Assembly: GCA_021324815.1 (NCBI GenBank)
Contig: JAJPIJ010000006.1
Span: 24,814 to 88,813, forward strand
DNA length: 64,000 bases
DNA from: Gammaproteobacteria bacterium
Lineage (GTDB): Bacteria; Pseudomonadota; Gammaproteobacteria; JAJPIJ01
Reading direction: 5' to 3'
Below, piece after piece: positions 453-19,463 of the stretch. Below the pieces are notes generated by a model that saw nothing but the letters and a program-made list of their open reading frames with translations, had not been told where the DNA came from and did no database searches. A program made the position numbers and the translations under genes. Within the stretch, counting starts at the first letter, position 1. Every line of letters starts with the position of its first letter.

Positions 453-480
453 GCGGATAGGAGTCTACAGGAGTGTGCCG

Positions 481-4853: not shown

Positions 4854-6374
4854 ATGCTGCCCAACCGTTCACGTTGCAAACCATTGCTTGGCGCCTTTCT
4901 GGCCGCCTTCACCGCGGCCGCAACGGCGCCAGCGGCCCTCGCCGCCAACAATGACGCCCTGCTGGAGCTGCTGCGGGTGCTCAAGGAGAAGGGCACCATC
5001 GACCAGGCGACCTACGATCAATTGAAGGGTGTCGCCCAGGTCGAGAGCGAGCAGACCACGAAGGAACAGGAGGACATGAAGAAATCCACCAAGGAAGTCG
5101 CCGAAAAGGTCAGCAAGGACGAAAGCAAGCATAGTTGGGTCGACAAGGTCAAGGTCTCGACATTGTTGTACGCGGATTACGCCAACTACTACGAAACCGG
5201 ATTCGGTCCGCAGTTTCTCACCCAGATCAATCCGCCCGGCCCGGGCAACGACGGTTTCAACTCGTTTGACATCACCCGCACCTATCTCAACGTGCTGTTC
5301 ACGCCCAATGACGACTGGACCTTCCGGCTGACGCCCAACATCTACCGCGCGATCGGCTCCAGCACCGCCGACAAGAGCGGAAAAACCGGTGCGATAGGCA
5401 GCAATCTCGATGGCAACCTGAATTTCCGCCTGAAATACGCCTACGTGCAGTACAACAAACTGCTCGACGGCATCGAACCGCTGAAGGGCGGCATGATCAC
5501 GGTCGGCCAGCAGATGAACCCGCTGGTGGACTGGGAGGAGGCGCTGTACGGGTTCCGCTATGTCAATCTGGTGCCGTGGAACTACTTGAGCCTGTCATCG
5601 ACGCAGGTGGGCGTCTCTCTCAAGGGACCCATCAAGTTCAACGGCAGGACCTACGTGGACTACGACTTCGGCGTTTACAACAACGCGGCGTTCCGCACCT
5701 TCGAGCAGACCGATGAAAAACAGGGCATGGTGCGCGTGTCGGTCTACCCCTTTGGCGCCGAGAAGCGGTTCGACGGCCTGGGGCTGACGGGGTTCTACGA
5801 TCGCGGCCACGGCAACGTCACGCCGGACACGACGATCACCACGGCACTCAAGGGACCTGATTCGGACATTGAACGTGTCGCCGCCCTCGTGCATTACACG
5901 ACCAACGACTGGCAGCTCGCCGGTGAATACGACTGGGGCAAGAATGCCTTCACGCCCGGAAACCTGTTCTCCGGCAGCGGTCCCGGCGATGTATTTGGCG
6001 TGGCGACCGGCTTCGCCGATTTCACCACCATGACCAACAACATCCTGAACACGGGGAAGAGCGAGCAGGAAGGGTATGACGTCTTCGGCCACTATCACAT
6101 CCCCGGCACGCCGCTGACGCTGTTCGGCATGTATGAGAAATTCATGCCCAACACGAGGGTCGACCATAATCCGCTCGACTTCGAGCGCTTCGTCGGCGGC
6201 ATCAACTGGGATTACAGCAAGTTCCTGCGGCTGGCGCTGGCCAGCCAGAATTTGTGGTACTCGCATGATCAATTCGACTTCCCCATCACGCCGGGGATAA
6301 GCACGAAGGTCGTCAAGAACGCCGTGCCGGAAGGCATACATGCGATGTTCGTGAACCTTGAGTTCAGTTACTAA
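4854..6374 (+). CDS. Outer-membrane porin, phosphate-selective porin OprO/OprP-like (506 aa) with signal peptide
   Basis: Strong RBS (AGAGGAGAAG). N-terminal signal peptide MLPNRSRCKPLLGAFLAAFTAAATAPAALA. The rest is a long beta-rich, aromatic/Gly-rich sequence typical of a porin barrel. A Pho box lies upstream. Confidence 0.55.
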   Translation: MLPNRSRCKPLLGAFLAAFTAAATAPAALAANNDALLELLRVLKEKGTIDQATYDQLKGVAQVESEQTTKEQEDMKKSTKEVAEKVSKDESKHSWVDKVKVSTLLYADYANYYETGFGPQFLTQINPPGPGNDGFNSFDITRTYLNVLFTPNDDWTFRLTPNIYRAIGSSTADKSGKTGAIGSNLDGNLNFRLKYAYVQYNKLLDGIEPLKGGMITVGQQMNPLVDWEEALYGFRYVNLVPWNYLSLSSTQVGVSLKGPIKFNGRTYVDYDFGVYNNAAFRTFEQTDEKQGMVRVSVYPFGAEKRFDGLGLTGFYDRGHGNVTPDTTITTALKGPDSDIERVAALVHYTTNDWQLAGEYDWGKNAFTPGNLFSGSGPGDVFGVATGFADFTTMTNNILNTGKSEQEGYDVFGHYHIPGTPLTLFGMYEKFMPNTRVDHNPLDFERFVGGINWDYSKFLRLALASQNLWYSHDQFDFPITPGISTKVVKNAVPEGIHAMFVNLEFSY

Positions 6375-6613: not shown

Positions 6614-7939
6614 TTAACGCAGGTTGCCGATCTGGAAATTGAGCACCGTATTCTGGATCTGGTATTCGTACTTGGCGCGGTTATAGGCGATCTCCGCCTC
6701 GGTTTCGTTGAGTTGCGCCTGCGTCACGTCAATGATGGAGCTCAAGCCGATGTTGTATCGCGACTGGGCGAGATCGAGGGCCTGCGCGGCGTACTCTTTC
6801 AGATGCATGGTGACATCCAGGCTTTCAAAGCCGGCCTTGGTGTCCAGCCACGCGATGCGCACGTCGCGCACCACGCGGTTCTCCGCGTCCGTGAGCAACT
6901 CGTTCACCGAGTCGGCCTTCAGCTTCGCCTGCTCCTCCATGGCGGTGTATTTCCCGCCGTTGAAGATGGGCACGCTGACGTTGATGCCCGCCGCCTCGTA
7001 GGTGTCGCCGAGCCTGGAGTCGCCCACCGGCGTCACGCCCGCCACGGCGAGGAGGTTCACCGTCGGGTAATTGAGCGCCCGCTCGGCCTTGACGAATTTG
7101 AGCGCGGCGTTGTGATCGGCCCGCAGGCTGGCCAGCTCCGGCCTGGCTTCGATGGCGCGGGACAGCAATGCGGCAAGATCGGCCGGCGGCGCCGTCGTGG
7201 TGGCGTTGTCCGCGAGCTGGAAACTGCGCGTGTCGCGGTACCCCATGCTGGTCGACAGGTTGGCGAAGGCGGCCTCCAGGGCGTTCTGCGCCTGGACCAG
7301 GAGCAGCCTGGCCTGTTCGACATTCACCTTCGCGAAACTGACGTCGAGCTCGGACTTGAGCTTGTTTTGCGCCAGCAGCGTGACCCTGGTCAGCAGCAAC
7401 TGCCGTGTGTCCAGGGTTTGCGAGGCCACCTTCACGATGGCCTGCGCCTCCAGCGCCCGGTAGTAGGCCTGGCTGACTTCGAGCAGGATTTGCGCGCGCT
7501 CGGTGTTGAACTGTTCCTCCCGCGACGCCGAGGTGTAGCGTGAACTGTCCACCAGGTTCCTGGTGCGCCCGAAGTCGGTGACCAGCTGATCCACCATCAA
7601 GCCGTTGGATTCCCGCGACAGCACGGTGGGATTGTTCAATCCGCCCGCGGCAATCCGCGTGTCGATGGTGGTGGGAACGCCGTTCCTGTCGCGCGTGAAA
7701 CTGTCGGCGCCGGCCGCCGTGACGCTGGCGGACACGAGCGGGTAATAAGCCGACTCCACTTCGCGGGTCGCCGCCTGCGCCTCGGACACGGCCAGTCTCG
7801 CCGCCCGGATGCGCGGCTGGTTCTCAAGGGCTATCGCCTGCGCCTCCTTGAGGGTCAGGGCCCGGGGAGGCACGTCGGCGGCCGGGGCATGCGGGGAAAG
7901 CAACAGCGCCACAGCGAACATCGGGACATGGTATTTCAT
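6614..7939 (-). CDS. TolC-family outer membrane efflux factor (OMF) of an RND system
   Basis: 441 aa with signal peptide (MKYHVPMFAVALLLSPHAPAA). Two helical-repeat halves and composition are typical of TolC/OprM-family proteins. It is the last gene of the MFP-RND operon on the minus strand. Confidence 0.8.
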   Translation of the reverse strand: MKYHVPMFAVALLLSPHAPAADVPPRALTLKEAQAIALENQPRIRAARLAVSEAQAATREVESAYYPLVSASVTAAGADSFTRDRNGVPTTIDTRIAAGGLNNPTVLSRESNGLMVDQLVTDFGRTRNLVDSSRYTSASREEQFNTERAQILLEVSQAYYRALEAQAIVKVASQTLDTRQLLLTRVTLLAQNKLKSELDVSFAKVNVEQARLLLVQAQNALEAAFANLSTSMGYRDTRSFQLADNATTTAPPADLAALLSRAIEARPELASLRADHNAALKFVKAERALNYPTVNLLAVAGVTPVGDSRLGDTYEAAGINVSVPIFNGGKYTAMEEQAKLKADSVNELLTDAENRVVRDVRIAWLDTKAGFESLDVTMHLKEYAAQALDLAQSRYNIGLSSIIDVTQAQLNETEAEIAYNRAKYEYQIQNTVLNFQIGNLR

Positions 7940-7978: not shown

Positions 7979-10900
7979 TTACGCCGCCGGGACGTGTTCC
8001 GCGCGCCGCCGGTAGAACAGAAAATAGGCCACCGGCACGATAAAGATGGTGGTAATCACCGACACCGACAGCCCGCCGATGATCGCCCTGGCCAGCGGGG
8101 CGTAGGCCTCGCTGCCCGTGCCCAGCTTGGCCGCCATCGGGATCAATCCAAAAATGGTCGCCAGCGAGGTCATGAGCACGGGCCGCAGGCGCACCCGGCA
8201 GGCCAGCGCCACCGCCTCGCGCAGGGGCGTGCCCTCCTCCCGCAGCCGGCGGGTGAACTCCACGATCAAAATGCTGTTGGACACCACGATTCCCACCATC
8301 ATGACGATGCCCATCAGTGACATGATATTGAGCGTCGTGCCGGTGGCGAGCAGCATGGCCAGTACTCCCGTCAGTCCCGGTGGAATGGCGAGAAGAATGA
8401 TAAACGGATCGGAAAAAGAGGCAAATTGCGCCACCAGGATCAGATAAACCAGAATCACGGAGAGGATGAGACCCAGTCCGAAGCTGGTGAAGGAGGCCCG
8501 CATGCTCTGCACCGTGCCGCGCAAATCGATTTTCACGCCCTCGGGCAGGGTCGTGTTTTTGACCAGTTGATCGATGGCCGAGGATATCTTCCCGATATCC
8601 TCGGTCACCGTGCCGACGTAGACGTCGATGACGCGCCGCAGTTGATAATGATCGACCTCGGTCGGCGCCTCGACCTTGCTGACCTTCACGACGGCGTCGA
8701 GCAGCGCGGAGCGCCTCTGGTCGCGCGAGCGTATGGGGATGGATTTGAGATCGGACATGCTTTTCACGGCGTCCTCCGGATATTGAACCGTCAGCATGTA
8801 ATCATTGCCGGTGCGGGGATCCACCCAGTAGCTCGGCGCGATCATCGCGTTGGAGGTCAGCGCGGTGATGACGTTGCTCACCACCTCCTTCTGGCTCAGG
8901 CCCAGTTCGCTGGCGCGGACGCGATCCACGTCAAGGCGCAGCGACGGCGCGTCGATGTCCTGCGGTATGAGGACGTCGCTGACGCCCGGCAGCCCGCGGA
9001 TCCGGCCCGCCAGTCCGGCCGCCGTGGCATAGGCGGCCTTGAGATTGGAGCCGCTGACCTGGACGTCAATGGGCGTGGGCAATCCCAGGTTGAGAACGGC
9101 GTCCACCAGCCCGCCGGACTGAAAATAGCTGGTGAGCTGCGGCAATTCGCGGTGGATGCGCTCGCGCACGCGGTCCATGTATTCGTAACTGCCGATCTTG
9201 TGATCCTGCTTCAGACTGGCCTGGACAAAGGCGGTGTGCGTGGCGGAGTTGCTGGTGTACATGGAGGAGTAGCCCGGCGTGGCCCCGATGTTGGACACCA
9301 CGACGTCGAGATCCTCCGGACGGACCTCCTGGCGGATGATATCCTCCACCCTTTTCACCAGCTTCTCCGTCATGGCGAGTTTCAGGCCGGTGGGCGCCTT
9401 GAGATTGACCACGAACTGGCCGGGATCGGTGCGCGGAAAGTAGGCCAGTCCCAGCCGCGGGATGAGGCCCATGCTCATGACGCATATTCCCACGAGGCCC
9501 ACCAGCGTGGCGACGGGGCGCAGCAGCGTGGCCTGCACGCTCCGGTCGTAGCGTTCCAGCATCACCTCGAACTTTCGGTTGAACCAGCGATTGAACCGCG
9601 TCCCCCAGCCGCCGGAGACGGGCGCAGCGTCGTCATCAAGGGCGGCATGACCCTTGATCAGCCTGGCGCAAAACAGCGGCACCACGGTCATGGCCACCAG
9701 GTATGATGCGAACAGGGACAGGACCACGGCGATGGCCAGCGCGGAGAACAGGAAACGGCTGACCCCGTAGAGAAACGTCACCGGGAAGAAGACCACGGCG
9801 GTGGTCAGCGTCGCCGCCAGCACCGGCAGCGCCACCTCCTTGCCGCCCTTTTCGGCCGCCACTTCCGGGCTTTCGCCCAGCTCCATGTGACGGAAAATGT
9901 TTTCCAGCACCACCACGGAATTATCGATGAGCCGGGAGAAGGCCAGCGCGAGCCCTCCCAATATCATCGAATTGACGGAGCTGCCGCCGAAGTAGAGGAT
10001 GATGAAGGCGCCGAGGGCGGACAGCGGTATGGACAGGAATACCGCCGCCGTCGCCCGCAGGCTGCCCAGGAAAATCAATATCATCAATCCCGTCAGCACC
10101 AGCCCGATGGCGCCCTCGTGTATCAGGTTTTCGATGGCCGTCTTGACGAAGATGGACTGGTCGAACACCACCTCGGCGATTAATTCCTTGGGGACGTCGA
10201 CCAGATGGGACAGCGCGTTCTTGATGCCGTCCACCACGGCGATGGTGTTGGTGTCGCCACCCTGTTTCATGACGGGGAGATACACGGATCGCTGCCCGTC
10301 GACGCGCACCACGCTGGTCTGGATTTGCGACGCGTCCCTCGCTTCGCCGACGTCAGCCACCAGGACCGAGGCGTTGTTGACCGTCTTGAGCGGCAGCCGG
10401 TTGATTTCATCGACGCCCGCCAGCTGGCTGTTGGTGTAGATGTTGTAGTCGTACGGACCCACGATCACGTCGCCTGCGGGCAGAATGAGATTGGAATCGT
10501 TCACCGACCTCACCACGTCCATGACGCTGAGCTGGTGCGCCTCGAGTTTCAGCGGATCGACGTAGACCATGATCTGGCGGTACCTGCCGCCGAAGGGCGG
10601 CGGCACGGTGGATCCGGGCACGTTGGCGACCTGGTTGCGGACCTCGAACTGCCCCAGATCGCGCAGGCTGGTCTCGTTGAGTCCCTGCCCCTTCAGGGTG
10701 ATGAGGCAGACCGGCAGGCTGGAGGCGTCGAACTTGAGCACCACCGGCGGCAGGGTGCCGGGCGGCAGCCGGCGCAGATCGGCCATCGCCAGGTTGGAGA
10801 TCATGGAGACCGCCGAATCCGCGCTGGTGCCCGGCTGAAAATAGATTTTGATCAGGCTGACGCCGGGAAGCGAACGGGATTCCATGTGATCGATGCCGCT

Positions 10901-11116
10901 GCCCAGCGTGAAGAACCGCTCGAAGCGGCCGGTGATGTCGTTCTCGATGTCCTCCGGCGGCATCCCGGAGAAAAACGTGGCCACGACGACCACCGGGATG
11001 TTGATGCCGGGGAACAGGTCGACGGGCATGCGCACGAGGCTGCTGACGCCCACCACCACTACCATCAGGCAGGCAACGATGATGAAGTACGGATATCGCA
11101 GGGAAAATTTAGACAT
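7979..11116 (-). CDS. RND efflux transporter permease subunit (AcrB/MexB-like, 1045 aa)
   Basis: 12-TM RND topology with two large periplasmic loops. N-terminus MSKFSLRYPYFIIVACLMVVVVGVSSLVRMPVDLFP… is typical of HAE1-family pumps. Confidence 0.9.
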   Translation of the reverse strand: MSKFSLRYPYFIIVACLMVVVVGVSSLVRMPVDLFPGINIPVVVVATFFSGMPPEDIENDITGRFERFFTLGSGIDHMESRSLPGVSLIKIYFQPGTSADSAVSMISNLAMADLRRLPPGTLPPVVLKFDASSLPVCLITLKGQGLNETSLRDLGQFEVRNQVANVPGSTVPPPFGGRYRQIMVYVDPLKLEAHQLSVMDVVRSVNDSNLILPAGDVIVGPYDYNIYTNSQLAGVDEINRLPLKTVNNASVLVADVGEARDASQIQTSVVRVDGQRSVYLPVMKQGGDTNTIAVVDGIKNALSHLVDVPKELIAEVVFDQSIFVKTAIENLIHEGAIGLVLTGLMILIFLGSLRATAAVFLSIPLSALGAFIILYFGGSSVNSMILGGLALAFSRLIDNSVVVLENIFRHMELGESPEVAAEKGGKEVALPVLAATLTTAVVFFPVTFLYGVSRFLFSALAIAVVLSLFASYLVAMTVVPLFCARLIKGHAALDDDAAPVSGGWGTRFNRWFNRKFEVMLERYDRSVQATLLRPVATLVGLVGICVMSMGLIPRLGLAYFPRTDPGQFVVNLKAPTGLKLAMTEKLVKRVEDIIRQEVRPEDLDVVVSNIGATPGYSSMYTSNSATHTAFVQASLKQDHKIGSYEYMDRVRERIHRELPQLTSYFQSGGLVDAVLNLGLPTPIDVQVSGSNLKAAYATAAGLAGRIRGLPGVSDVLIPQDIDAPSLRLDVDRVRASELGLSQKEVVSNVITALTSNAMIAPSYWVDPRTGNDYMLTVQYPEDAVKSMSDLKSIPIRSRDQRRSALLDAVVKVSKVEAPTEVDHYQLRRVIDVYVGTVTEDIGKISSAIDQLVKNTTLPEGVKIDLRGTVQSMRASFTSFGLGLILSVILVYLILVAQFASFSDPFIILLAIPPGLTGVLAMLLATGTTLNIMSLMGIVMMVGIVVSNSILIVEFTRRLREEGTPLREAVALACRVRLRPVLMTSLATIFGLIPMAAKLGTGSEAYAPLARAIIGGLSVSVITTIFIVPVAYFLFYRRRAEHVPAA

Positions 11117-11162
11117 GACGCATGAACCAATTCATCAAATCAGAGAATGGCGGCGGCAGGTT

Positions 11163-11888
11163 CTAGTCGCGATTCGCCTTGAGCAGCCGCCGCAGTCCTT
11201 CGATTGAAAATTCCGGCGAACGGCAGAAATCGATGATCGCGGATTTCTCCCGGCGCTGGCGTGCGGCGATTTGCGGCAGCTGACCGGCGATCTGCGGCGG
11301 AATCGACAATACGCCGTGCTGGTCGCCGTGCAAGAGATCGCCGGTCCTCACGGTCAGGCCGCCGATCCGCACCGGTTCCCCCGCCTCGACGATGTGCATG
11401 TAGGCGTGAGACACGGTGACGTTCGACGCGAAGACATGAAATCCCAGCGCCTGCACGGCGGGCAGATTGCGCACCGCGCCGTTGGTGACCACCCCGACAC
11501 ATCCCAGGGCCTTGAAGATGTTCGCATGCACCTCGCCGAGGAAGGCGCCCATGCCCGGATGCCTGTCGATATCCTCGACCGCCAGCACCCGCGGCGCCGG
11601 GACGCCGAGCAGATTCTCCCACCAATCGTTACGCACGCCGGTGAAGCGCGCGCGAAAAGGGTCCTGCATCGGCGGCTCGGCCGTGCTGATGCGCAGCGGA
11701 AAGGCGTAGGCGACGAGGGGCTCCGGGCCGGCGGACAGACAGCGGATGCTCGAATCCATGAAGCCCTCGTTGCGCATGCGTATGCCGGTGCTTTCGATGG
11801 CGCTGGCCACGGCGCAACTGTCGAGCCGGCGAAGTTGTTCCACGATGTCGCCCGGAGCACCCGCCCGGCCGGAAGATCCCGCGTTCAT
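11163..11888 (-). CDS. RraA-family protein (ribonuclease E inhibitor RraA / 4-hydroxy-4-methyl-2-oxoglutarate aldolase-like), 241 aa
   Basis: Carries the RraA-type motif …GDLLHGDQHGVLSIP…. Its start overlaps the MFP gene stop by 4 nt (ATGA), and it lies 46 bp upstream of the RND permease. Confidence 0.75.
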   Translation of the reverse strand: MNAGSSGRAGAPGDIVEQLRRLDSCAVASAIESTGIRMRNEGFMDSSIRCLSAGPEPLVAYAFPLRISTAEPPMQDPFRARFTGVRNDWWENLLGVPAPRVLAVEDIDRHPGMGAFLGEVHANIFKALGCVGVVTNGAVRNLPAVQALGFHVFASNVTVSHAYMHIVEAGEPVRIGGLTVRTGDLLHGDQHGVLSIPPQIAGQLPQIAARQRREKSAIIDFCRSPEFSIEGLRRLLKANRD

Positions 11889-13153
11889 TCAAGCTCACCC
11901 TCGCTGATGATTTTCGGACTGACCCTCTCCCCCGGCCTGTAGATGCCGTGCCGCCCCACCACGACGAGGTCGTTCTCCATCAGCCCGGAGATCACCTCGG
12001 CCCGCGTGGAAGTCTCCATTCCCAGGGTGATCGGGCGCTGTTCGAGTTTGTGATCCCGGTCAAGCACGAGAATCGACACGGAACCGTTCCTGCGGTTGGG
12101 CACGGCCTCAATCGGGATCGACAGGGCGTCCTTGTGCCTTTCGACGGTCAGGGTCACGGTGGCATACATGCCCGGCGCCAGTGAAAGATCCGGATTGGGA
12201 ACATCGACCTCGACATGCATGGTGCGCGTGTCGGTCTTGATTTCATCGCTGATGCGCGTGATGTGCGCCGTGAAGGTTTTGTGGATCGACTGGATGTTGA
12301 CCGCCACGGGGTCGCCGATCCGGATCGTGGACGCGACGGATTCCGGCACCGGCAGAACCAGCCGGAGGGGATTCATTTGCGAGATGCGAACCAGGACCTG
12401 GCTGCCGGCCGAGGTGCCGGCGCCGACCAAGGCGCCGGTGTCCGCCAGACGCTCGGTGATCACGCCGTCAAAAGGGGCGATGATTTTGCTGTAATTCAGC
12501 GTGTCCTGGAGGCGGGTCACGTTGGCTTCGGCCTCCTGGATGGCGGCTTCGGCGGCGACCCAGGCGGCGTTGGTCGTTTCGTCATGGGCCCGTGCCTCAT
12601 CCAGGTCCTGTTGTGCAACGAGGTTGGGATGCTCTTTCATCACCCCCGTGAGGCGGGTGTAGGCCAGATGCGCATCCTCATAGGCGGCCTCGGCGCGCGC
12701 CGCCTCGTGCTTGCTGCGTTCCACCGCCGCGCGCGCCTTGCGCAATTCGTCCTGAAGTTCGGGCACTTCCAGGACGGCGAGGACGTCCCCTTCCTTGACG
12801 CGATCCCCCACATCCACGTTCATGACTTGTATGTAACCGGTGACCTTGGCGTGAAGATCCACCCTCTGGAACGGATGAAATTCCGCGGCGATCTCGATCT
12901 GGCGGACAAGATCCTCTCTTTTGACGGGCGCAACGAGCACCGAGGGAAGGCCGGGGGCCCGCCTTGCGGCCTCCGGCGGCGGCCCGCCATGTCTATGGGC
13001 CCGGTCGAACATGACGCCGGCCGCGGCGGCGCCGGCGATGATGATCCCGGCGATGGCCAGCAGACGACGCCGGTCCCCCTGGGGCCGGCGGGGGGCCTTT
13101 TTCACTAAAGCAGCGCCATCGTCAGGCGGGTTCATTGCGGATTCAAGTTCCAT
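11885..13153 (-). CDS. RND efflux periplasmic adaptor (membrane fusion protein, HlyD/AcrA family), 422 aa
   Basis: N-terminal membrane anchor, coiled-coil hairpin region (…ELQDELRKARAAVERSKHEAARAEAAYEDAHLAYTRL…) and beta-barrel domains. It is the first gene of the efflux operon. Confidence 0.85.
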   Translation of the reverse strand: MELESAMNPPDDGAALVKKAPRRPQGDRRRLLAIAGIIIAGAAAAGVMFDRAHRHGGPPPEAARRAPGLPSVLVAPVKREDLVRQIEIAAEFHPFQRVDLHAKVTGYIQVMNVDVGDRVKEGDVLAVLEVPELQDELRKARAAVERSKHEAARAEAAYEDAHLAYTRLTGVMKEHPNLVAQQDLDEARAHDETTNAAWVAAEAAIQEAEANVTRLQDTLNYSKIIAPFDGVITERLADTGALVGAGTSAGSQVLVRISQMNPLRLVLPVPESVASTIRIGDPVAVNIQSIHKTFTAHITRISDEIKTDTRTMHVEVDVPNPDLSLAPGMYATVTLTVERHKDALSIPIEAVPNRRNGSVSILVLDRDHKLEQRPITLGMETSTRAEVISGLMENDLVVVGRHGIYRPGERVSPKIISEGELE

Positions 13154-13299: not shown

Positions 13300-14697
13300 C
13301 TACGCACACATTCCCTTGGGAATCGTCATGGTGACGCGGCAACCGATTTCCCGCCCGCCATCCATGCGGCCGGCACCGATGGTGACGGCCCCGCCATGGA
13401 CCCGGGCGACGAGGGCCACCAGTGTGAGGCCGAGTCCCGCGCCCGTCCGGCCCCCGCCGGTCCTTGCCGGGGTTCGCGCCGCCTCCAGACGATAAAAGGG
13501 CATCAACACCCGTTCCCGCTCGGCTGGCGGGATGCCCGGCCCCTCGTCGGAAACGCTGAGCGACACGTCCGCGCCGGTGTCGGCGGCGGCCAGGATAATC
13601 CGCCCTGATCCGTATTTTGCCGCGTTCTCGATCAGGTTCCATAGCGCCCGCTTCAGCAATGCCGGATCGGCGATGAGGTGCAGCGGTTCACCCTCCGCGA
13701 CTTCCACCGCCCTGCCCGCCACCAGCGGATCATGCGCGACCTGTTCGGCGATCTGGGCGAGGAACTCCCGCACGTCGATGTCTTCAAGATTCGCCGGCAG
13801 GCCCGTTGCGTCCAGGCGCGTCGCGGTCAGCACGTCCTCCACCAGGCGATCCAGTTCCGCCAGGTCGGTCTCCACGGCGCGCAGGCGATCTTCGGCGATT
13901 TCCCGGCAGGGCAAGAGCTCGAGTGCCACGCGTATGCGCGCCAGGGGTGAGCGGATTTCGTGTGATATGTTCGCCAGCAACTGCCGCTGTCCCCGCAGCA
14001 GGGCGTCGATGCGCTCCGTCATCTGGTCGAAAGCCAGGGACAGTTGTTGCAACTCGTCCGCCTGCCACTGCGCAGGCTTCCACCACGCGGAATTCCGGCG
14101 GCGGGGAGCGGACGCGCGCCAGGTGAAGTCGCCGCGGCCGATACGCCGCGCGGCCTCGGTCAGCCGCTCCAGCGGATGGGAGATGTGCCTGGCCAGCGGC
14201 CGGGTCGCCAGCGCCACGATCAGCCACGCCAGCGTCCAGGTCAGCAGGGGCTGCGGGAGGCCGAAGAACCGCGACCGTTGGTGCGCGGACGCCTCCAGTA
14301 TTCCCAGGCGCTGACCGGAGCGGGGATCGCGGATCAGGAGCTTGACGAGCAATGCCGGCCGGGACAGCCGGATCACTTCCCCGCTCTCGATTTTTTTCAT
14401 TTCCTCGGCGGTTACCGGGGGCAGCTCCTCCCCCGCCGCGGCGAGCACGGACCCCGCGCGATCGCGCACGGTCATGTCCACGTCCAAATCATCGTGAAGT
14501 TGCCGCACCCGCAACGTCAGCGCGGCGCGGTCGTGAAAACTCTCGCCGACGAGGGAGGCCAGATGCGGCCACAGGCGCTCGGACACCTCCGTCTGGAAGG
14601 CGCTGCGGGCGCTGAGATTGAAAAGCGCGCCCGACGTGAGCGAGACGACGAGCACGATCGCGATGAAATACAGATAAATGTGGGTGTGCAAATGCAT
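13300..14697 (-). CDS. Sensor histidine kinase (two TM helices, HAMP, HisKA, HATPase_c), 465 aa
   Basis: H-box …ANISHEIRSPLARI… and N/G-box regions are present (GLGLTLV…). It follows the OmpR-type regulator gene and precedes the efflux operon. Confidence 0.85.
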   Translation of the reverse strand: MHLHTHIYLYFIAIVLVVSLTSGALFNLSARSAFQTEVSERLWPHLASLVGESFHDRAALTLRVRQLHDDLDVDMTVRDRAGSVLAAAGEELPPVTAEEMKKIESGEVIRLSRPALLVKLLIRDPRSGQRLGILEASAHQRSRFFGLPQPLLTWTLAWLIVALATRPLARHISHPLERLTEAARRIGRGDFTWRASAPRRRNSAWWKPAQWQADELQQLSLAFDQMTERIDALLRGQRQLLANISHEIRSPLARIRVALELLPCREIAEDRLRAVETDLAELDRLVEDVLTATRLDATGLPANLEDIDVREFLAQIAEQVAHDPLVAGRAVEVAEGEPLHLIADPALLKRALWNLIENAAKYGSGRIILAAADTGADVSLSVSDEGPGIPPAERERVLMPFYRLEAARTPARTGGGRTGAGLGLTLVALVARVHGGAVTIGAGRMDGGREIGCRVTMTIPKGMCA

Positions 14698-14783: not shown

Positions 14784-15494
14784 TCAATGTGCGCCATGGC
14801 GCATGAACGCGTATCCCACGCCGCGCACCGTCTTGATGTAACGAGGCTCCCTGGGATTGGCCTCGATCTTGGCGCGCAATCTGGCGATGTACACGTCAAT
14901 CGTTCGATCGAAGACATCGCCCCCCCTCTTGAGGGCGTCGAGCAACTGGTCGCGGGAAAGCACCCGGCCGGCAGAACGCGCCAGCAGCGCCAGCAGATCG
15001 AATTCATACTGCGTCAACACCAGCCGCCGGCCGGCGAGGGACACCTCCCGCGTGTCAAGATTGACCGTCAGATCTCCGGAGGAGACGCACGCCGGCGCCG
15101 GGCTGGCGGCGCCCCCGGAGGCTCGCCGCAGCAACGCCCGCACGCGGGCCAGCAACTCGCGGGGATTGAACGGTTTGGCCAGGTAATCGTCGGCGCCCAG
15201 TTCGAGTCCAACCACCCTGTCCATGACGTCGCCCTTCGCGGTCAGCATCATGACCGGTATCGCGGCCAGTTCCGGCGTCGCCCGGATGCGGCGGCACAGT
15301 TCCAAGCCGTCCAATCCGGGCAGCATGATGTCCAGAATGACGATGTCGAATCGCTTGTTTCGCAATGTGGAGAGACTCGCCGCCGGGTCGCTGATGACGG
15401 TAAGATCGATGTCGTTCGCACCCAGATACTCCCTGGCAAGGGCGCCCAGCCGGGCGTCATCATCAACTAGAAGGACGGAGGCGCGGGATGCCAT
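14784..15494 (-). CDS. OmpR/PhoB-family response regulator (receiver domain plus winged-helix), 236 aa
   Basis: MASRASVLLVDDD…FDIVILDIMLPGLDGLELCRRIR…, with a C-terminal wHTH (…YIKTVRGVGYAF). Confidence 0.9.
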   Translation of the reverse strand: MASRASVLLVDDDARLGALAREYLGANDIDLTVISDPAASLSTLRNKRFDIVILDIMLPGLDGLELCRRIRATPELAAIPVMMLTAKGDVMDRVVGLELGADDYLAKPFNPRELLARVRALLRRASGGAASPAPACVSSGDLTVNLDTREVSLAGRRLVLTQYEFDLLALLARSAGRVLSRDQLLDALKRGGDVFDRTIDVYIARLRAKIEANPREPRYIKTVRGVGYAFMRHGAH

Positions 15495-16011: not shown

Positions 16012-16539
16012 TCAGGGGCGGGACGCGGTCTTGTTTTTGTAATTGATGGTGAAGGTGGCGAGATAAATGCCCATCACCGCGCCAACAGAGCCGAATATGA
16101 AATGGGTCAGGATGGGATAGTAGTAGCCGTGTTTGCCGAGACTGCCGGCGGTGACTTCAAACAGAACCGCCAGCGGCACGTCCAGAACCGGCTTCACCAG
16201 AAAGCTGACGCCGCCAAGAACCACGCCCTTGACAATCACCGGCAGACCTTTCGGCGTCACCTTGAACAACAAATCCAGGCAGACGCCGTTCAGCAGGTAA
16301 ATCAACGCGGGCTTGAAGTCATGCGCCAGCAGCATGAAGGACGATTGCACCAGATACGCCATGGCCGCGCCACTGCCCGTCATCAGGCCGGCCCAGGGAT
16401 TGCGGGATTGCATCCGGCCGAACAGCAGCAGCGTCATCCATTCCAAACCATGGCGCCCCGGGATGTTCAACCCGAATCGCAAATGTTGATGCAGGAGGGC
16501 GGCGGCCACGCCCAGGGTGAACAGGGCGAAGAGCGTCAA
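16012..16539 (-). CDS. Small polytopic membrane protein (~175 aa, 5-6 TM), uncharacterised; start inferred at TTG 16539
   Basis: Hydrophobic ORF. In-frame TTG at 16539 lies 9 nt after a GAGGA and 14 nt after the upstream gene stop. Other possible starts are 16602 or 16671, which would overlap the upstream gene. Last gene of the TonB-receptor cluster. Confidence 0.45.
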   Translation of the reverse strand: MTLFALFTLGVAAALLHQHLRFGLNIPGRHGLEWMTLLLFGRMQSRNPWAGLMTGSGAAMAYLVQSSFMLLAHDFKPALIYLLNGVCLDLLFKVTPKGLPVIVKGVVLGGVSFLVKPVLDVPLAVLFEVTAGSLGKHGYYYPILTHFIFGSVGAVMGIYLATFTINYKNKTASRP

Positions 16540-16552
16540 ACTGCCGTCGTCC

Positions 16553-17320
16553 TCAAGGACGTACTGATTTAATGACCGCCTTGTCCAGGACCTTGTATTC
16601 ATGCCGGGCCTCGTCGTGTTCCACCAGCAACACCGCGTGATTATCCACCCTGACCGCCCGGGGCCAGTCACCCAGGTTGATCAGCGCCGTTTCATCCTCA
16701 ATTTCCGCGCCGCCGAGCAGTGACACCTTTTCTATTCCCGCATCCCTCTTCAGATCGCTCACGGTGAGCCTCTGCCCGGCGTACTGCCGCAGCCCCCTGG
16801 GCCACAGATAGCGGCCGTCATTCCCCTGCACGTGCAGGCCGACGGCCGAAAGGGATCCAATGATCCCCTGCTGATTGCCGGTCAGACCCTCAAGCCGGAT
16901 GCCATGTTTGCGCGCCGTAGACCGTGCCTCGTCCTGCCCGACCACGTCCACCTGGGCCTTGCGACCGAAGTCGATGACATTGGACGCCTGAACGTGAGTC
17001 GCGAGGCACAGTCCGGCATCGGACCCTTCCGCCGCCGTCTCCAGCAGGAAGGCACGGCAAAAATCCATCAGTTGATCATCGTCTACGCCGTCGTGGCGCT
17101 TCACCACGAGGCAGGCGGAACTGTTGTGCGAGGTGTAAGGCACCCGGTCATCCACCAGCAATTGATGGCGGGTCACGGCAATCCCCCCCGCCAGATTGTT
17201 CTCCTGCAACCGCTCAATAAGCTGCCTCGCCCTGAATCCCGTGCCCCGGGTTTCCAGGTTGTCCGTGTCGTCAATGCCTATATAGGTCAGGTCATTGCTC
17301 AATGGGATCAGCCGCTTCAT
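16553..17320 (-). CDS. Uncharacterised soluble protein (256 aa) with N-terminal motif YIGIDDTDN…TRGTGF
   Basis: Internal ATG at 17320 gives MKRLIPLSNDLTYIGIDDTD…. The listed 17485 start would overlap the receptor gene 3' end. No signal peptide or TM helix. Sits between the TonB-dependent receptor gene and the small membrane protein gene. Confidence 0.5.
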   Translation of the reverse strand: MKRLIPLSNDLTYIGIDDTDNLETRGTGFRARQLIERLQENNLAGGIAVTRHQLLVDDRVPYTSHNSSACLVVKRHDGVDDDQLMDFCRAFLLETAAEGSDAGLCLATHVQASNVIDFGRKAQVDVVGQDEARSTARKHGIRLEGLTGNQQGIIGSLSAVGLHVQGNDGRYLWPRGLRQYAGQRLTVSDLKRDAGIEKVSLLGGAEIEDETALINLGDWPRAVRVDNHAVLLVEHDEARHEYKVLDKAVIKSVRP

Positions 17321-17399
17321 GCATGGCCCGCCACCGGGTGGCGGAGGCAAACACTGGCCGGTGGAACGTTCAACGGGGATTGATCTTATCCCAACGGCA

Positions 17400-19463
17400 T
17401 TACGATCCAAAATGCAGCTCGCCGCCAAAGAATATGGTTCTCCCGGGAGAGGGGAATCCGCCGCTGTCCATGTAGTTTTCATCAAACAGGTTCAAGGCGC
17501 GGCCGAAGATGCTGATATCGCCGAAACTTTTCTCCACCTTGAGATCGAACAGGTCGTAGTCGCCTATGTTCCTGGAGACGGTCGGCGTGGCCTTGGAAAG
17601 ATCGACGCTGCCGTCGACGTGGTAATAAGAGGCATACAATTCCACGCCGAACGGCAGGAGATAATTGACCTCGGTGGTGACGCGATGGCGGGGCCTGTTC
17701 TGCAGGTCATGGTCGGTCACGCCGGCCGACAGGTTCCTGGAGTCCATGAACGTGTAACCGGCCCGGATTTGCAGGTTCCGCAGCGGCGCGATCTCGCCGG
17801 CCAGCTCAATGCCCTGAAACCTGTCCCGGTCGATGTTCTGGGCGACGCCGTTACTGTCCGCCTCGATGAAATTGTTTGCATCGGTGCGGAAAAATGTGAT
17901 GCCCGCGCTCGCAGGGATGACGGCGAAGGTTTGGGTGACGCCGGCCTCATACTCCTTTGTCACCTCCGGCTTGAGACCCGGATTCGCGCGCCCCGGTTCG
18001 AACAAATCGGTCAGCGTGGGAAAGCGAATCTGGCGGGAATGATTGAAATGCAACCGGGTGTGCTCAAAGACGTCATAATACGTTCCAACAAGATAGGATA
18101 CATCGTCATTATTGCCGGCCGTGCGGGTCTGCCAATTGTAACCGACGCCGCCGACCAGTCCCAGCCGCTCGTACAGTCGCAACTCGTGCTCGTAACTGAC
18201 CGAACAAATATCGTCGGATTCGTCCACCAATGTGGGCTGGGTTATGTTGGTCGTGGTGCTGGTGGTGGTTTTCTTCTTTCCTTTCCCCGTTGTGCCCGTC
18301 GTGGTTTGGCCCACTATCTGGAATCCATCGTCATGCCACTGCTCATTACGACAATTCAATGCCACGGAGCTCAAACCCGCCGCGGCAAAATCATAGCTGG
18401 CCACCAGGCTGCCTCCCAGAATATCGGAGCGGGTGTTGTCACCGAAGGCGCCGGCGGCGCTCCGGGTGTTGAAGTTGGCGTTGTCGTAATTGTTGTCCAG
18501 TTCATCCAGGCGGTTGAAATAAATCGTCGGGCGGATCGTCAATGGCGCCTGGAATTTATGCTGCCCGGTCAGGTTGAGGGAGAATCCCTCGAAATCGTTT
18601 ACCCGTTCGAAGCGCGAGCGGGTCGCGAACGGATCAGCGTCGGTACCCGTGAAATCGCGCACATCCGGGGGTATGCCGAAGGAGCCTTTTTTATAACTTC
18701 CGCTGATGCCGATCTCGGTGCCAGGCAACCCCTGCCATATTGAATTGGCATAAAGATTCAAATTGTCGCGATCGCTGTTGATTCTCTGCCCCTGGGGTTG
18801 AAAGTTGTTGGGGGTGGGCGGACCGGTGACGGGCACGGGATTGTAGTCATCCGAGAGATGAAAACTGTCCTGATGGAATCCTGATGCACTCATGAAGGAA
18901 TGCCAGTCTTCGCCGCCGGTACCCGCGCTGATCTGGCCGTGTTTGACGCCGTCCCCGTTGCCGCCGAATTCCGTCAGGGCGTGGCCTTGGAATCTTTCCC
19001 CGCCGGCCTTGGTGATGATGTTGATCACGCCAGCGGTGCCGCCGGATCCGTACAATAATGAACTGGTGCCGCGCGTGATCTTGATGCGCTCGATGTTTTC
19101 CACGTCGATGGCCGAGGGATCGAATTGACCGTCGATGGCCGAATTGATTGGCACGCCATCAAGCAGCAGAATGATTTGACGCGTCCGCAATCCGCGGATG
19201 TCGATGCGCGGTGTCCCGTCCCCGCCCGTCCGGACGTAGAGGCCCGGCAGCAGTTTGAGAGCCTCGTTGAGGTCGCGGGCCCCCGATCGATGAATGTCCT
19301 CGGCCGTCACTTCATCGACGGTGCCCACTTCCTCGACGACGCGAGGCTTGTCGCCCGAGACGACGATTTCGCCCAAATCAAAGGCCGGGTCCTGGGCTTG
19401 TACAGCCGTGCTGATCAATGCCGCGCTGACGATCAGCGGCGGATTCCGCCGTCTTGTACCCAT
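17400..19463 (-). CDS. TonB-dependent outer-membrane receptor (687 aa)
   Basis: Signal peptide, TonB box (DLGEIVVSG), plug domain motifs (…RGTSSLLYGSGGTAGVINIITK…) and a long beta-barrel. The C-terminus ends …GGELHFGS, with the aromatic residue at -3 rather than terminal. Confidence 0.85.
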   Translation of the reverse strand: MGTRRRNPPLIVSAALISTAVQAQDPAFDLGEIVVSGDKPRVVEEVGTVDEVTAEDIHRSGARDLNEALKLLPGLYVRTGGDGTPRIDIRGLRTRQIILLLDGVPINSAIDGQFDPSAIDVENIERIKITRGTSSLLYGSGGTAGVINIITKAGGERFQGHALTEFGGNGDGVKHGQISAGTGGEDWHSFMSASGFHQDSFHLSDDYNPVPVTGPPTPNNFQPQGQRINSDRDNLNLYANSIWQGLPGTEIGISGSYKKGSFGIPPDVRDFTGTDADPFATRSRFERVNDFEGFSLNLTGQHKFQAPLTIRPTIYFNRLDELDNNYDNANFNTRSAAGAFGDNTRSDILGGSLVASYDFAAAGLSSVALNCRNEQWHDDGFQIVGQTTTGTTGKGKKKTTTSTTTNITQPTLVDESDDICSVSYEHELRLYERLGLVGGVGYNWQTRTAGNNDDVSYLVGTYYDVFEHTRLHFNHSRQIRFPTLTDLFEPGRANPGLKPEVTKEYEAGVTQTFAVIPASAGITFFRTDANNFIEADSNGVAQNIDRDRFQGIELAGEIAPLRNLQIRAGYTFMDSRNLSAGVTDHDLQNRPRHRVTTEVNYLLPFGVELYASYYHVDGSVDLSKATPTVSRNIGDYDLFDLKVEKSFGDISIFGRALNLFDENYMDSGGFPSPGRTIFFGGELHFGS

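What the first reader, a model, noticed from the sequence alone, without database searches (positions are those of the whole stretch)
11163..11888. RraA-family gene embedded in, and translationally coupled within, an RND efflux operon
Gene order on the minus strand is MFP, RraA-like, RND permease, TolC-like OMF. The RraA-like start overlaps the MFP stop (ATGA). RraA-like proteins are RNase E inhibitors or small-molecule aldolases/decarboxylases, and I do not know them as parts of tripartite pumps. Its fixed stoichiometric position suggests either an enzyme that modifies the pump substrate or an RNA-decay modulator co-induced with efflux.
Basis: partly seen in the sequence, partly recalled or inferred. 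Interest (0 to 1): 0.5.

Follow-up and report, generated by a model that had tools for sequence, protein, structure and literature searches.

The report
RraA-fold accessory gene of efflux pumps
A small cytoplasmic protein of the RraA/aldolase fold sits inside an efflux-pump operon, and its close relatives in soil bacteria of at least four phyla are almost always next to the same kind of pump, yet about half of those pumps lack it, so it looks like an undescribed optional helper of unknown chemistry.

Summary
On the minus strand lie a response regulator, a histidine kinase, the adaptor (MFP), a 241-aa RraA-like gene (11163-11888), the RND permease and the outer-membrane factor. The RraA-like ATG overlaps the MFP stop (ATGA).

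The linkage is conserved. Of 81 species-level genomes carrying a close relative (49-63% identity), 79 have it beside an MFP-RND-OMF pump. Two gene orders occur: MFP-RraA-RND (Verrucomicrobiota, Proteobacteria) and RraA-MFP-RND (Acidobacteriota). RraA-like and RND divergence are correlated, and dN/dS is about 0.07.

The reverse does not hold. Only about half of 50 evaluable pumps of the same RND clade (65-75% identity) carry the gene, so it is an optional accessory, not a subunit.

The protein has the RraA/HMG-CHA-aldolase fold, the essential Arg (R140) and an invariant His-rich pocket. The aldolase's two acidic metal ligands are replaced in a quarter of members. Both are replaced in this window (N141, K215). 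It falls below the curated cut-offs for both the aldolase and RraA models.

My best reading, which is inferred, is a cytoplasmic small-molecule-processing or small-molecule-binding protein co-induced with the pump. No literature on this was found. I class it as a new variant of a known kind, of moderate interest.

The parts
14784..15494 (-). OmpR-family response regulator, the first gene of the cluster
   Evidence: Pfam Response_reg plus Trans_reg_C. The best NCBIfam matches are OmpR, CreB and BaeR types, all below their cut-offs. An RR-HK pair precedes the pump in most loci with the MFP-RraA-RND order.
13300..14697 (-). Sensor histidine kinase (HAMP-HisKA-HATPase) with an N-terminal periplasmic sensor region
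   Evidence: Pfam. The best NCBIfam matches are RstB, CpxA, EnvZ and BaeS. The heavy-metal type ranks sixth, and every model is below its cut-off.
11885..13153 (-). RND periplasmic adaptor (MFP), whose N-terminal region was not resolved here; its stop overlaps the RraA-like start
   Evidence: TIGR01730 at 216 bits against a cut-off of 94.9, and HlyD_D23. The overlap is read directly from the sequence.
11163..11888 (-). RraA-fold protein of 241 aa with no signal peptide, so presumably cytoplasmic. It has R140, G118 and the invariant pocket residues H121, S160, H161, H165, H187, D189 and H191, but N141 and K215 at the two aldolase metal-ligand positions.
   Evidence: PF03737. AF2 model with pLDDT 89.8. 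Foldseek best matches are 3K4I, 5IR2, 3NOJ, 5X15 and 2C5Q at TM about 0.7.
11117..11162 (-). 46-nt spacer between the RraA-like stop and the RND start, with no terminator-like hairpin
   Evidence: The equivalent spacer is mostly 5-38 nt in other loci with this order, with extremes of -34 and 185 nt, and overlaps by 4 nt in L067.
7979..11116 (-). RND permease of a distinct clade. The AcrB/MdtB-type Asp-Asp (TM4) and Lys (TM10) are replaced by S394-R395...D398-N399-S400 and S946-N947-S948.
   Evidence: PF00873 at 697 bits. The best solved relative is MdtB at only E=1e-92. The motif is near-invariant in 140 clade members: R395, D398 and S394 occur in all, N399 in 132 and S946 in 138.
6614..7939 (-). 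TolC-family outer-membrane factor, the last gene of the operon
   Evidence: PF02321 with two OEP repeats. TIGR01844 scores 152 bits, below its 225-bit cut-off.

Best explanation
This is a two-component-regulated tripartite RND efflux operon of an uncharacterised RND clade found mainly in uncultured soil bacteria. It carries a dedicated but dispensable cytoplasmic accessory protein of the RraA/class-II-aldolase fold. The accessory belongs to its own clade, which occurs almost only next to these pumps and is inherited together with them. The pumps themselves exist with or without it. The most likely mechanism is inferred, not shown. The protein binds and probably converts a small carboxylate or 2-oxo-acid-like compound in the cytoplasm. 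It would use the conserved enolate-stabilising Arg (R140) and a His-rich pocket in place of the canonical Mg2+ site. It is placed under the pump's inducible promoter because its substrate is the pump's substrate, or a metabolic consequence of it. In this picture it is a second, intracellular line of defence behind the pump, not a pump component.
For: Shown:
- RraA-like to pump linkage holds in 79 of 80 evaluable species-level loci from Acidobacteriota, Verrucomicrobiota, Beta- and Gammaproteobacteria and Dormibacterota, in two gene orders.
- No other neighbour is conserved.
- RraA-like and RND pairwise identities are correlated (r=0.65; 0 of 2000 Mantel permutations reach it).
- dN/dS is 0.04-0.2, similar to the RND and MFP genes.
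- Pump to RraA-like linkage holds in only 24 of about 50 evaluable loci. RraA-less operons are nested among RraA-containing ones, for example L102 next to the window's own group.
- The model has the RraA/HMG-CHA aldolase fold.
- G118, R140 and H161/A162/H165 align to G101, R123 and G144/T145/E148 of the aldolase. Those aldolase residues line the pyruvate and general-acid/phosphate pocket.
- These residues plus H121, S160, H187, D189 and H191 are 98-100% conserved in 81 pump-linked sequences.
- The nearest out-paralogues (30-36% identity) lie in sugar-acid and hydroxy-acid catabolic clusters, so they look like enzymes.

Inferred: a His at the Gly-144 position could act as general acid/base in place of the phosphate/water site. 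Co-regulation would explain the one-way linkage.
Against: - The two acidic metal ligands of the aldolase (D124, E199) are not conserved. Position 141 is D 52%, E 35% and N/S/G 13%. Position 215 is E 79%. At least one ligand is lost in 21 of 81 sequences and both in 5, including the window protein. A metal-dependent lyase activity may therefore be absent.
- No candidate substrate, pathway partner or riboswitch was found.
- RND pumps normally capture substrates from the periplasm, so a cytoplasmic enzyme has no direct mechanistic contact with the pump.
- I could not inspect the model coordinates, so clustering of the invariant His, Asp and Cys residues in one pocket is inferred from alignment only.
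- No experimental data exist for any member.
Confidence: 0.4

Rival explanations
1. Ligand-sensing regulatory cap. The RraA-like protein is presumably a homotrimer, as other RraA-fold proteins are. It would dock on the cytoplasmic face of the homotrimeric RND permease and switch or tune transport in response to a metabolite, as GlnK does with AmtB.
For: - The gene is tightly embedded, with start/stop overlap to the MFP gene in 9 of 21 loci of this order and a spacer to the RND gene that is mostly 5-38 nt.
- The pocket is strictly conserved while the catalytic metal ligands decay, as expected for a sensor derived from an enzyme.
- The founding member RraA acts by protein binding (established knowledge).
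- In one related operon (Granulicella pACIX902) a DUF190 protein is encoded upstream of the TolC gene, and there is no RraA-like gene. That DUF190 is PII-like is from my own recall.
- The RND clade has an unusual, invariant TM4/TM10 charge network.
Against: - Half of the closely related pumps lack it, with no visible compensating change in the RND.
- The RND has no extra cytoplasmic domain; it is 1045 aa, a normal length.
- The MFPs share no common cytoplasmic tail. Those in the RraA-first order are lipoproteins.
- The DUF190 case is a single locus, and no DUF190 was found in 80 further loci.
Confidence: 0.15
2. Biosynthetic enzyme. The RraA-like protein makes, by aldol condensation or decarboxylation, a small acid that the pump then secretes, for example a chelator or signal.
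For: The family chemistry is reversible pyruvate aldol addition. The protein is strictly dependent on pump context. The RND sequence is highly conserved across phyla (57-78% identity), which hints at one specific physiological cargo.
Against: Half of the pumps have no such enzyme. No inner-membrane exporter or further biosynthetic gene is conserved nearby. The metal ligands needed for aldolase chemistry are lost in the window protein.
Confidence: 0.1
3. RNase E/degradosome modulator co-induced with efflux. It would bind RNase E or a DEAD-box helicase and reshape mRNA decay during envelope or toxin stress.
For: It has the RraA fold, with Foldseek matches to E. coli, P. aeruginosa and T. thermophilus RraA and to Streptomyces RraAS2. 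The metal ligands have decayed in some members.
Against: It scores only 24 bits against the RraA equivalog model, whose cut-off is 136. It shares 16-24% identity with solved RraA-fold proteins. Its architecture is the 230-240 aa aldolase type, not the roughly 160 aa RraA type. The nearest paralogues sit in catabolic clusters. Nothing explains why such a regulator would be found only beside one pump clade.
Confidence: 0.07
4. Functionally unrelated passenger: a gene that happened to insert into the operon and is carried along.
For: The pump clearly does not need it.
Against: The linkage is kept in 79 of 80 loci across at least four phyla and through a gene-order rearrangement. Purifying selection is strong (dN/dS about 0.07) and the gene co-diverges with the RND gene.
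Confidence: 0.03

Closest known systems
HMG/CHA aldolase / oxaloacetate decarboxylase (LigK, GalC, ProA; PDB 3NOJ)
   Same: Same alpha-beta-beta-alpha fold and same length class of about 230-240 aa, with the C-terminal helix. The pocket Gly (G118=G101) and the essential Arg (R140=R123) are conserved.
   Different: Profile E-value is only 6e-8 and identity 19%. It is far below the equivalog cut-offs. Metal ligands D124 and E199 are N141 and K215 here. The Gly-144/Thr-145/Lys-147 pocket wall is replaced by an invariant S-H-A-Y-x-H. It is not in a protocatechuate or gallate pathway but in an efflux operon.
RraA, regulator of RNase E (E. coli; PDB 1Q5X, 2YJV)
   Same: Common fold and Pfam family PF03737.
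   Different: RraA is about 160 aa. This protein scores 24 bits against a cut-off of 136. Nothing links it to RNase E.
PSPTO_3204 of Pseudomonas syringae (PDB 3K4I), an uncharacterised structural-genomics protein
   Same: It is the best sequence match (E=2e-14) and best structural match (TM 0.70-0.78) among solved structures.
   Different: Identity is 19-20%. It lacks the invariant His residues (its pocket loop and hairpin read MQSAKN and VCDGSG). Its function is unknown, so it gives no mechanistic help.
RraA-family genes in hydroxy-acid and sugar-acid catabolic clusters (for example Advenella pWTk445, Variovorax plasmid)
   Same: These are the nearest annotated paralogues, at 30-36% identity. 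They share S160, H161, H187, D189, H191, TNG135-137 and R140.
   Different: They lie next to TTT-type binding proteins, dehydratases and dehydrogenases, never next to RND pumps. They have Pro instead of C25, and their metal ligand is D in 89% of representatives.
Enzyme genes embedded in RND operons: sulfide:quinone oxidoreductase in the Azospira suillum pump operon (Dsui_3440-3443), and llpE (lipase/esterase) in llpE-bpeEF-oprC / ceoAB-opcM of Burkholderia
   Same: An enzyme-like gene sits inside an RND operon and is not required for the pump. The Azospira case is from PMC5358917. The llpE case is from my own knowledge.
   Different: The protein families are different, and those cases are restricted to one genus. 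Here the linkage spans several phyla and hundreds of genomes.
Small accessory proteins of RND systems (CusF, AcrZ, MexG)
   Same: An extra gene within a tripartite pump operon (own knowledge).
   Different: Those proteins are periplasmic (CusF) or membrane proteins (AcrZ, MexG) that contact the pump or its cargo. This one is a soluble cytoplasmic protein with an enzyme fold.

Membership tests
Pfam PF03737 RraA-like / aldolase superfamily | Score above the Pfam gathering threshold | tested here: met
   68 bits against 24.5, E=1.4e-18, although only residues 96-194 align.
Pfam PF03737 RraA-like / aldolase superfamily | RraA-type alpha-beta-beta-alpha fold | tested here: met
   AF2 model with pLDDT 89.8. 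The 26 matches with E <= 0.001 are all RraA-fold proteins, with TM 0.6-0.8 normalised to the target.
HMG/CHA aldolase / oxaloacetate decarboxylase (TIGR02798, NF006731) | Score above the curated equivalog cut-off | tested here: not met
   31.6 against 304.5 bits, and 38.4 against 179 bits.
HMG/CHA aldolase / oxaloacetate decarboxylase (TIGR02798, NF006731) | Essential enolate-stabilising Arg-123 and pocket Gly-101 | tested here: met
   R140 is conserved in 80 of 81 sequences. G118 is invariant in the 48-sequence alignment A1. The roles of the aldolase residues are from PMC5065237.
HMG/CHA aldolase / oxaloacetate decarboxylase (TIGR02798, NF006731) | Acidic metal ligands Asp-124 and Glu-199 | tested here: not met
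   The window protein has N141 and K215. E214 is adjacent, so a one-residue helix shift cannot be excluded. In the clade, position 141 is D/E in 86% and position 215 is E in 79%.
HMG/CHA aldolase / oxaloacetate decarboxylase (TIGR02798, NF006731) | Genomic context in the protocatechuate 4,5-cleavage or gallate pathway | tested here: not met
   The only conserved neighbours are the MFP, RND and OMF genes, with or without a two-component system.
HMG/CHA aldolase / oxaloacetate decarboxylase (TIGR02798, NF006731) | Aldolase or decarboxylase activity | not testable with these tools
   Requires a biochemical assay.
RraA, RNase E activity regulator (NF006875, TIGR01935) | Score above the curated cut-off | tested here: not met
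   24.1 against 136 bits, and 19.5 against 123.8 bits.
RraA, RNase E activity regulator (NF006875, TIGR01935) | Compact protein of about 160 aa | tested here: not met
   The protein is 241 aa.
RraA, RNase E activity regulator (NF006875, TIGR01935) | Binds and inhibits RNase E | not testable with these tools
   No interaction prediction or assay was available.
Tripartite RND efflux system (MFP + RND + OMF) | All three components encoded together on one strand | tested here: met
   TIGR01730 at 216 bits against 94.9; PF00873 at 697 bits; PF02321 with two repeats.
AcrB/MexB/MdtB-type HAE-1 RND permeases | TM4 Asp-Asp and TM10 Lys proton relay, and a score above the NCBIfam subfamily cut-off | tested here: not met
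   The alignment to MdtB shows D398-N399 and S946 at those positions, plus a clade-specific R395. These are near-invariant in 140 sequences. NF033617 scores 566 bits against a cut-off of 1250.
Pump-linked RraA-like clade (defined here) | At least about 41% identity to the window protein, with C25, H121, S160-H161, H165, H187-x-D189-x-H191 and R140 | tested here: met
   The window protein has all of these residues, and they are 98-100% conserved in 81 pump-linked sequences.
Pump-linked RraA-like clade (defined here) | Encoded co-directionally next to an MFP-RND(-OMF) set of the S-R-x-x-D-N-S RND clade | tested here: met
   True in the window and in 79 of 80 evaluable loci.

The most novel reading that the evidence does not exclude
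The RraA-like protein is a C3-symmetric, metabolite-sensing cytoplasmic cap that docks onto the trimeric RND permease and gates it, the way GlnK gates AmtB. This would add a fourth, regulatory subunit to a tripartite efflux pump. The pump clade concerned has a rewired transmembrane charge relay (R395/D398/N399 ... S946/N947/S948).
Probability: 0.12. Interest if true: 0.85.

Novelty: new variant of a known kind. Interest (0 to 1): 0.55.

Why it matters
RND pumps are central to bacterial tolerance of toxic compounds. Their known accessory proteins are periplasmic or membrane-embedded. A soluble cytoplasmic enzyme-fold protein that is found almost only next to one pump clade, is under strong purifying selection, and occurs in abundant but uncultured soil phyla is not in the literature I could search. 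If it is an enzyme, it should reveal the natural substrate of a widespread and very conserved pump family of Acidobacteriota and Verrucomicrobiota. It would also be a clean example of coupling efflux with intracellular detoxification. If it is a regulator, it would be a new way of controlling RND transport. Either way, it gives a function-discovery handle on a large uncharacterised branch of the RraA/aldolase superfamily (162 clusters at E<=1e-30).

Tried and rejected
1. Other conserved neighbours that could name a pathway. All-against-all ORF clustering of 80 genome loci and 80 metagenome loci found only RraA-like, MFP, RND and OMF genes, the two-component system, and antisense shadow ORFs.
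2. Riboswitch or other known RNA element in the window and five loci with the RraA-first order. Only tRNAs were found.
3. Heavy-metal system. The regulator and kinase rank as OmpR, RstB, CpxA and BaeS types ahead of CusS/CzcS types, and the RND scores higher with multidrug than with CusA/CzcA models. No support was found.
4. Binding to a cytoplasmic tail of the MFP. Rejected as a general mechanism, because MFPs in the RraA-first order are lipoproteins without a tail.
5. DUF190 as a recurrent substitute. It was seen once (Granulicella plasmid) and was absent from 80 further loci.
6. The MFP-RraA fused ORF P0230 as a Rosetta-stone fusion. It is a single metagenomic ORF that is topologically implausible, so probably a frameshift.
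7. A close relative for dN/dS in the window's own lineage. P0002/L174 is the same organism with an in-frame deletion and is not informative. Other pairs were used instead (one search timed out).
8. Four-cysteine signature as clade-specific. Only C25 is specific; C50, C130 and C222 are common in out-paralogues.
9. Literature. Four keyword searches linking RraA, the aldolase or the methyltransferase annotation with RND, efflux or Acidobacteria gave nothing relevant. The 2014 RraA/aldolase paper and the 3NOJ paper are not held.
Model coordinates could not be inspected, so spatial clustering of the invariant residues is untested.
11. Promoter and terminator scan. Nothing above the shuffle expectation within the operon.
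Full report
**1. What is in the window**

The minus strand between 15494 and 6614 carries six co-directional genes:
- an OmpR-family response regulator (14784-15494);
- a HAMP/HisKA histidine kinase (13300-14697);
- an RND adaptor, or MFP (11885-13153; TIGR01730 at 216 bits against a cut-off of 94.9);
- an RND permease (7979-11116; PF00873 at 697 bits);
- a TolC-family outer-membrane factor (6614-7939).

The sequence "cttgaATGAacgc" shows that the RraA-like ATG overlaps the MFP TGA by 4 nt. A 46-nt spacer without a terminator-like hairpin separates the RraA-like stop from the RND start.

**2. Is the arrangement conserved? RraA-like gene to pump: yes**

The identical protein occurs only on metagenomic and MAG contigs of the same organism. 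The next relative (63% identity, in a Gammaproteobacteria MAG with different flanking genes) has the same order RR-HK-MFP-RraA-RND-OMF and the same 4-nt overlap.

I scanned one genome per species with a profile of 48 homologues. It found 576 relatives, and the best 80 were kept (49-55% identity). They come from Acidobacteriota, Verrucomicrobiota, Beta- and Gammaproteobacteria and one Dormibacterota MAG. I then ran tblastn with the six window proteins against these loci. The results were:
- 20 loci, plus the window, have the order MFP-RraA-RND. These are mostly Verrucomicrobiota and Proteobacteria.
- 56 loci have the order RraA-MFP-RND. These are mostly Acidobacteriota.
- Two loci (L017, L027) have the RraA-like and OMF genes divergent from the MFP-RND pair.
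- One locus (L088) has the two-component genes inserted between the RraA-like and MFP genes.
- One locus (L058) has only fragmentary RND-like ORFs, and one contig (L087) is too short to judge.

That makes 79 of 80 evaluable loci. In the MFP-RraA-RND order, a 4-nt start/stop overlap with the MFP gene recurs in 8 of 20 loci. The spacer to the RND gene is mostly 5-38 nt.

All-against-all clustering of ORFs found no other conserved neighbour. The MFP-RraA-RND order is monophyletic in an RND tree. RraA-like and RND pairwise identities are correlated (r=0.65; none of 2000 Mantel permutations reach it). dN/dS of the RraA-like gene is 0.04-0.2, like that of the RND and MFP genes. This is a co-inherited, selected module and not a recent insertion.

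**3. The reverse test: pump to RraA-like gene holds only about half the time**

In the plasmid collection, the only RND above 38% identity (57.7%) is on a Granulicella tundricola plasmid. Its cluster reads DUF190-TolC-MFP-RND-RR-HK and has no RraA-like gene.

A metagenome scan centred on the RND gene returned 80 loci with 65-75% identity to the window permease. Of these:
- 24 have the RraA-like gene, in either order;
- 26 have at least 1 kb of sequence upstream of the MFP gene and no RraA-like gene;
- the rest are too short to judge.

The RraA-less loci include five with RR-HK-MFP-RND-OMF directly abutting (L102, L116, L134, L149, L164). In a distance tree, the RraA-less operons form one large block plus isolated cases nested inside the MFP-RraA-RND clade. 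L102 sits next to the window's own group. The tree is neighbour-joining with midpoint rooting, so the number of gains and losses is uncertain. The patchiness itself is clear.

The protein depends on the pump context, but the pump does not depend on the protein. This contradicts the idea of a fixed stoichiometric subunit.

**4. What kind of protein it is**

Curated models do not place it in a characterised family:
- HMG/CHA aldolase models score 32 against 304 bits, and 38 against 179 bits.
- The RraA model scores 24 against 136 bits.
- The best model is a "hypothetical protein" (PRK08245), at 62 against 208 bits.

An AlphaFold2 model built on the 48-sequence alignment is confident (pLDDT 89.8). 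It matches only RraA-fold structures at TM about 0.7 and 16-24% identity. These are the uncharacterised PSPTO_3204 (3K4I), 5IR2, HMG/CHA aldolase (3NOJ), RraAS2 (5X15) and yeast Yer010c (2C5Q). There is no signal peptide, so the protein is presumably cytoplasmic (read from the sequence).

The profile alignment to 3NOJ can be combined with the residue roles described for that enzyme in PMC5065237. This gives the following correspondence:

| This protein | 3NOJ aldolase | Role in the aldolase | Conservation in the pump-linked clade |
|---|---|---|---|
| G118 | Gly-101 | pyruvate pocket | invariant |
| R140 | Arg-123 | essential, stabilises the enolate | 80 of 81 |
| position 141 | Asp-124 | acidic metal ligand | D 52%, E 35%, N/S/G 13% |
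| position 215 | Glu-199 | acidic metal ligand | E 79% |
| S160-H161-A162 and H165 | Gln-143/Gly-144/Thr-145 and Glu-148 | wall of the phosphate/general-acid site | S160, H161, H165 at 98-100% |

In the 81 pump-linked sequences, H121, S160, H161, H165, H187, D189, H191, D106, T135 and C25 are 98-100% conserved. In 71 more distant representatives, position 141 is D in 89% (Fisher p=6e-7 for D).

Twenty-one of the 81 sequences lack at least one of the two acidic ligands, and five lack both. The window protein is one of those five (N141, K215). E214 lies next to K215, so a one-residue register shift cannot be excluded.

The nearest annotated paralogues (30-36% identity, on plasmids of Advenella, Variovorax and others) lie among tripartite tricarboxylate transporter binding proteins, dehydratases and dehydrogenases of hydroxy-acid or sugar-acid catabolism. 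They are not next to pumps. They share most of the His-rich pocket.

The pump-linked proteins are therefore a distinct branch of an enzyme-like, structurally uncharacterised part of the superfamily. The pocket is more constrained than in the relatives, and the canonical Mg2+ site less so.

**5. Mechanism**

The following is shown: a dedicated, selected but dispensable cytoplasmic accessory of one RND clade, sharing the pump's operon and, in the window, its two-component control.

The following is inferred. The conserved Arg and the invariant polar pocket argue for binding, and probably conversion, of a small carboxylate or 2-oxo-acid-type ligand. A His at the Gly-144 position could take over the general-acid/base role that phosphate and water play in the aldolase.

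The one-way linkage is most simply explained if the protein acts in the cytoplasm on the compound that induces and is exported by the pump, or on a metabolite that accumulates because of it. It would then be useful only when the pump's inducer is present. I give this reading about 0.4.

The rivals are:
- a ligand-sensing cap that regulates the trimeric permease (0.15);
- a biosynthetic enzyme for the exported cargo (0.1);
- an RNase E/degradosome modulator (0.07);
- an unrelated passenger gene (0.03).

The remainder is "something else". The loss of both metal ligands in the window copy counts against classical aldolase/decarboxylase chemistry and slightly favours the sensor reading. Dispensability, the absence of any extra cytoplasmic domain on the RND, and the lack of a common cytoplasmic MFP tail count against a structural partnership.

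**6. Comparison with what is known**

The system works like other RND operons that carry an enzyme gene. One example is the sulfide:quinone oxidoreductase in the Azospira suillum pump operon, which also encodes the MFP and the pump (PMC5358917). Another is llpE in the Burkholderia bpeEF-oprC and ceoAB-opcM operons (my own knowledge). It is not like CusF, AcrZ or MexG, which are periplasmic or membrane proteins.

It is a member of the Pfam RraA-like superfamily by score and by fold. It is not a demonstrable member of either characterised family, since the curated cut-offs and the metal-ligand test are not met.

The permease is itself atypical. The Asp-Asp/Lys relay of AcrB/MdtB is replaced by a near-invariant S394-R395-x-x-D398-N399-S400 and S946-N947-S948 in 140 sequences (R395 and D398 in all; N399 in 132). 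This holds whether or not the RraA-like gene is present. The closest solved pump is MdtB, at only E=1e-92.

**7. Novelty and verdict**

Four keyword searches linking RraA, the aldolase annotation or the methyltransferase mis-annotation with RND, efflux or Acidobacteria found nothing describing this association. Every member I could trace is from a MAG or a metagenome, which probably explains the silence.

I rate it a new variant of a known kind: a tripartite RND operon with a dedicated cytoplasmic RraA-fold accessory. Interest is about 0.55. The association is robust and unreported, and it concerns abundant soil phyla. The function is still unknown, and the protein is clearly not essential to the pump.

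Noticed in passing
window 7979-11116 (-), residues 394-400 and 946-948 of the RND permease; also L007-L173: The whole RND clade lacks the canonical AcrB/MdtB Asp-Asp (TM4) and Lys (TM10) proton relay. It has a near-invariant S-R-x-x-D-N-S in TM4 and S-N-S in TM10 in 140 sequences, with a new Arg one turn before the single Asp. This suggests a rewired, possibly different, coupling mechanism.
   Followed up: partly
window 4854-6374 (+); L007:18025-19587 (-): A 506-aa protein with a signal peptide and a C-terminal ...EFSY, with no Pfam or NCBIfam match, lies convergent with the OMF gene. It is probably an outer-membrane beta-barrel. A 69%-identical homologue lies a few kb downstream of the pump in the related L007 genome, so it may be a conserved neighbour.
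   Followed up: partly
L093 (Granulicella tundricola plasmid pACIX902) 4985-5338: A pump of the same RND clade (57.7% identity) has no RraA-like gene. A DUF190 gene (PF02641, E=6e-21) lies upstream of the TolC gene, giving DUF190-TolC-MFP-RND-RR-HK. This was seen only once.
   Followed up: partly
L171:3243-3608 and eight other RraA-less metagenome loci (L139, L140, L142, L143, L152, L156, L159, L170): A family of proteins of about 120 aa with one hydrophobic helix and the motifs LYNPF...RATVGSSEL...LWFRPPP, with no Pfam match, lies just upstream of the MFP gene in pumps that lack the RraA-like gene. It may be an alternative accessory.
   Followed up: partly
L126, L127, L128, L138, L139, L141, L156, L159, L170, L171: A 590-830 aa protein with a signal peptide, an N-terminal coiled coil and a C-terminal ...FTSFRYYLP (outer-membrane-like) flanks ten RraA-less pumps. 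It is not detectably related to the window's 506-aa protein.
   Followed up: partly
L083 5824-6510 and 8001-8663: One Limisphaerales locus carries two RraA-like genes, one before the MFP gene (39% identity to the window protein) and one between the MFP and RND genes (54%). Both known positions are therefore occupied at once.
   Followed up: no
L174 2557-3222 (same organism as the window, about 100% nucleotide identity): In another assembly of the same organism, the RraA-like gene has an in-frame deletion of about 20 codons that removes residues around G137-T158, including R140. The MFP gene also has a gap in the alignment. This is either an assembly artefact or a strain variant.
   Followed up: partly
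P0230 (metagenomic ORF, 486 aa): A single predicted ORF fuses the C-terminal part of an MFP with an RraA-like domain. Given the usual 4-nt overlap of the two genes, this is probably a frameshift or miscall and not a real fusion.
   Followed up: partly
window 16553-17485 (-) and 16012-16671 (-): Two ORFs lie between a TonB-dependent receptor gene and the response regulator. The first has weak similarity to methanogenesis marker 11 and to the TiaS N-terminal region (E=1e-9, far below the cut-off). The second has no family match in NCBIfam. Function is unknown.
   Followed up: no
window 367-3552 (+) and 3545-4192 (+): A large molybdopterin oxidoreductase is followed by an overlapping 215-aa ORF without a family match, downstream of the pump cluster. 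I did not examine it further.
   Followed up: no
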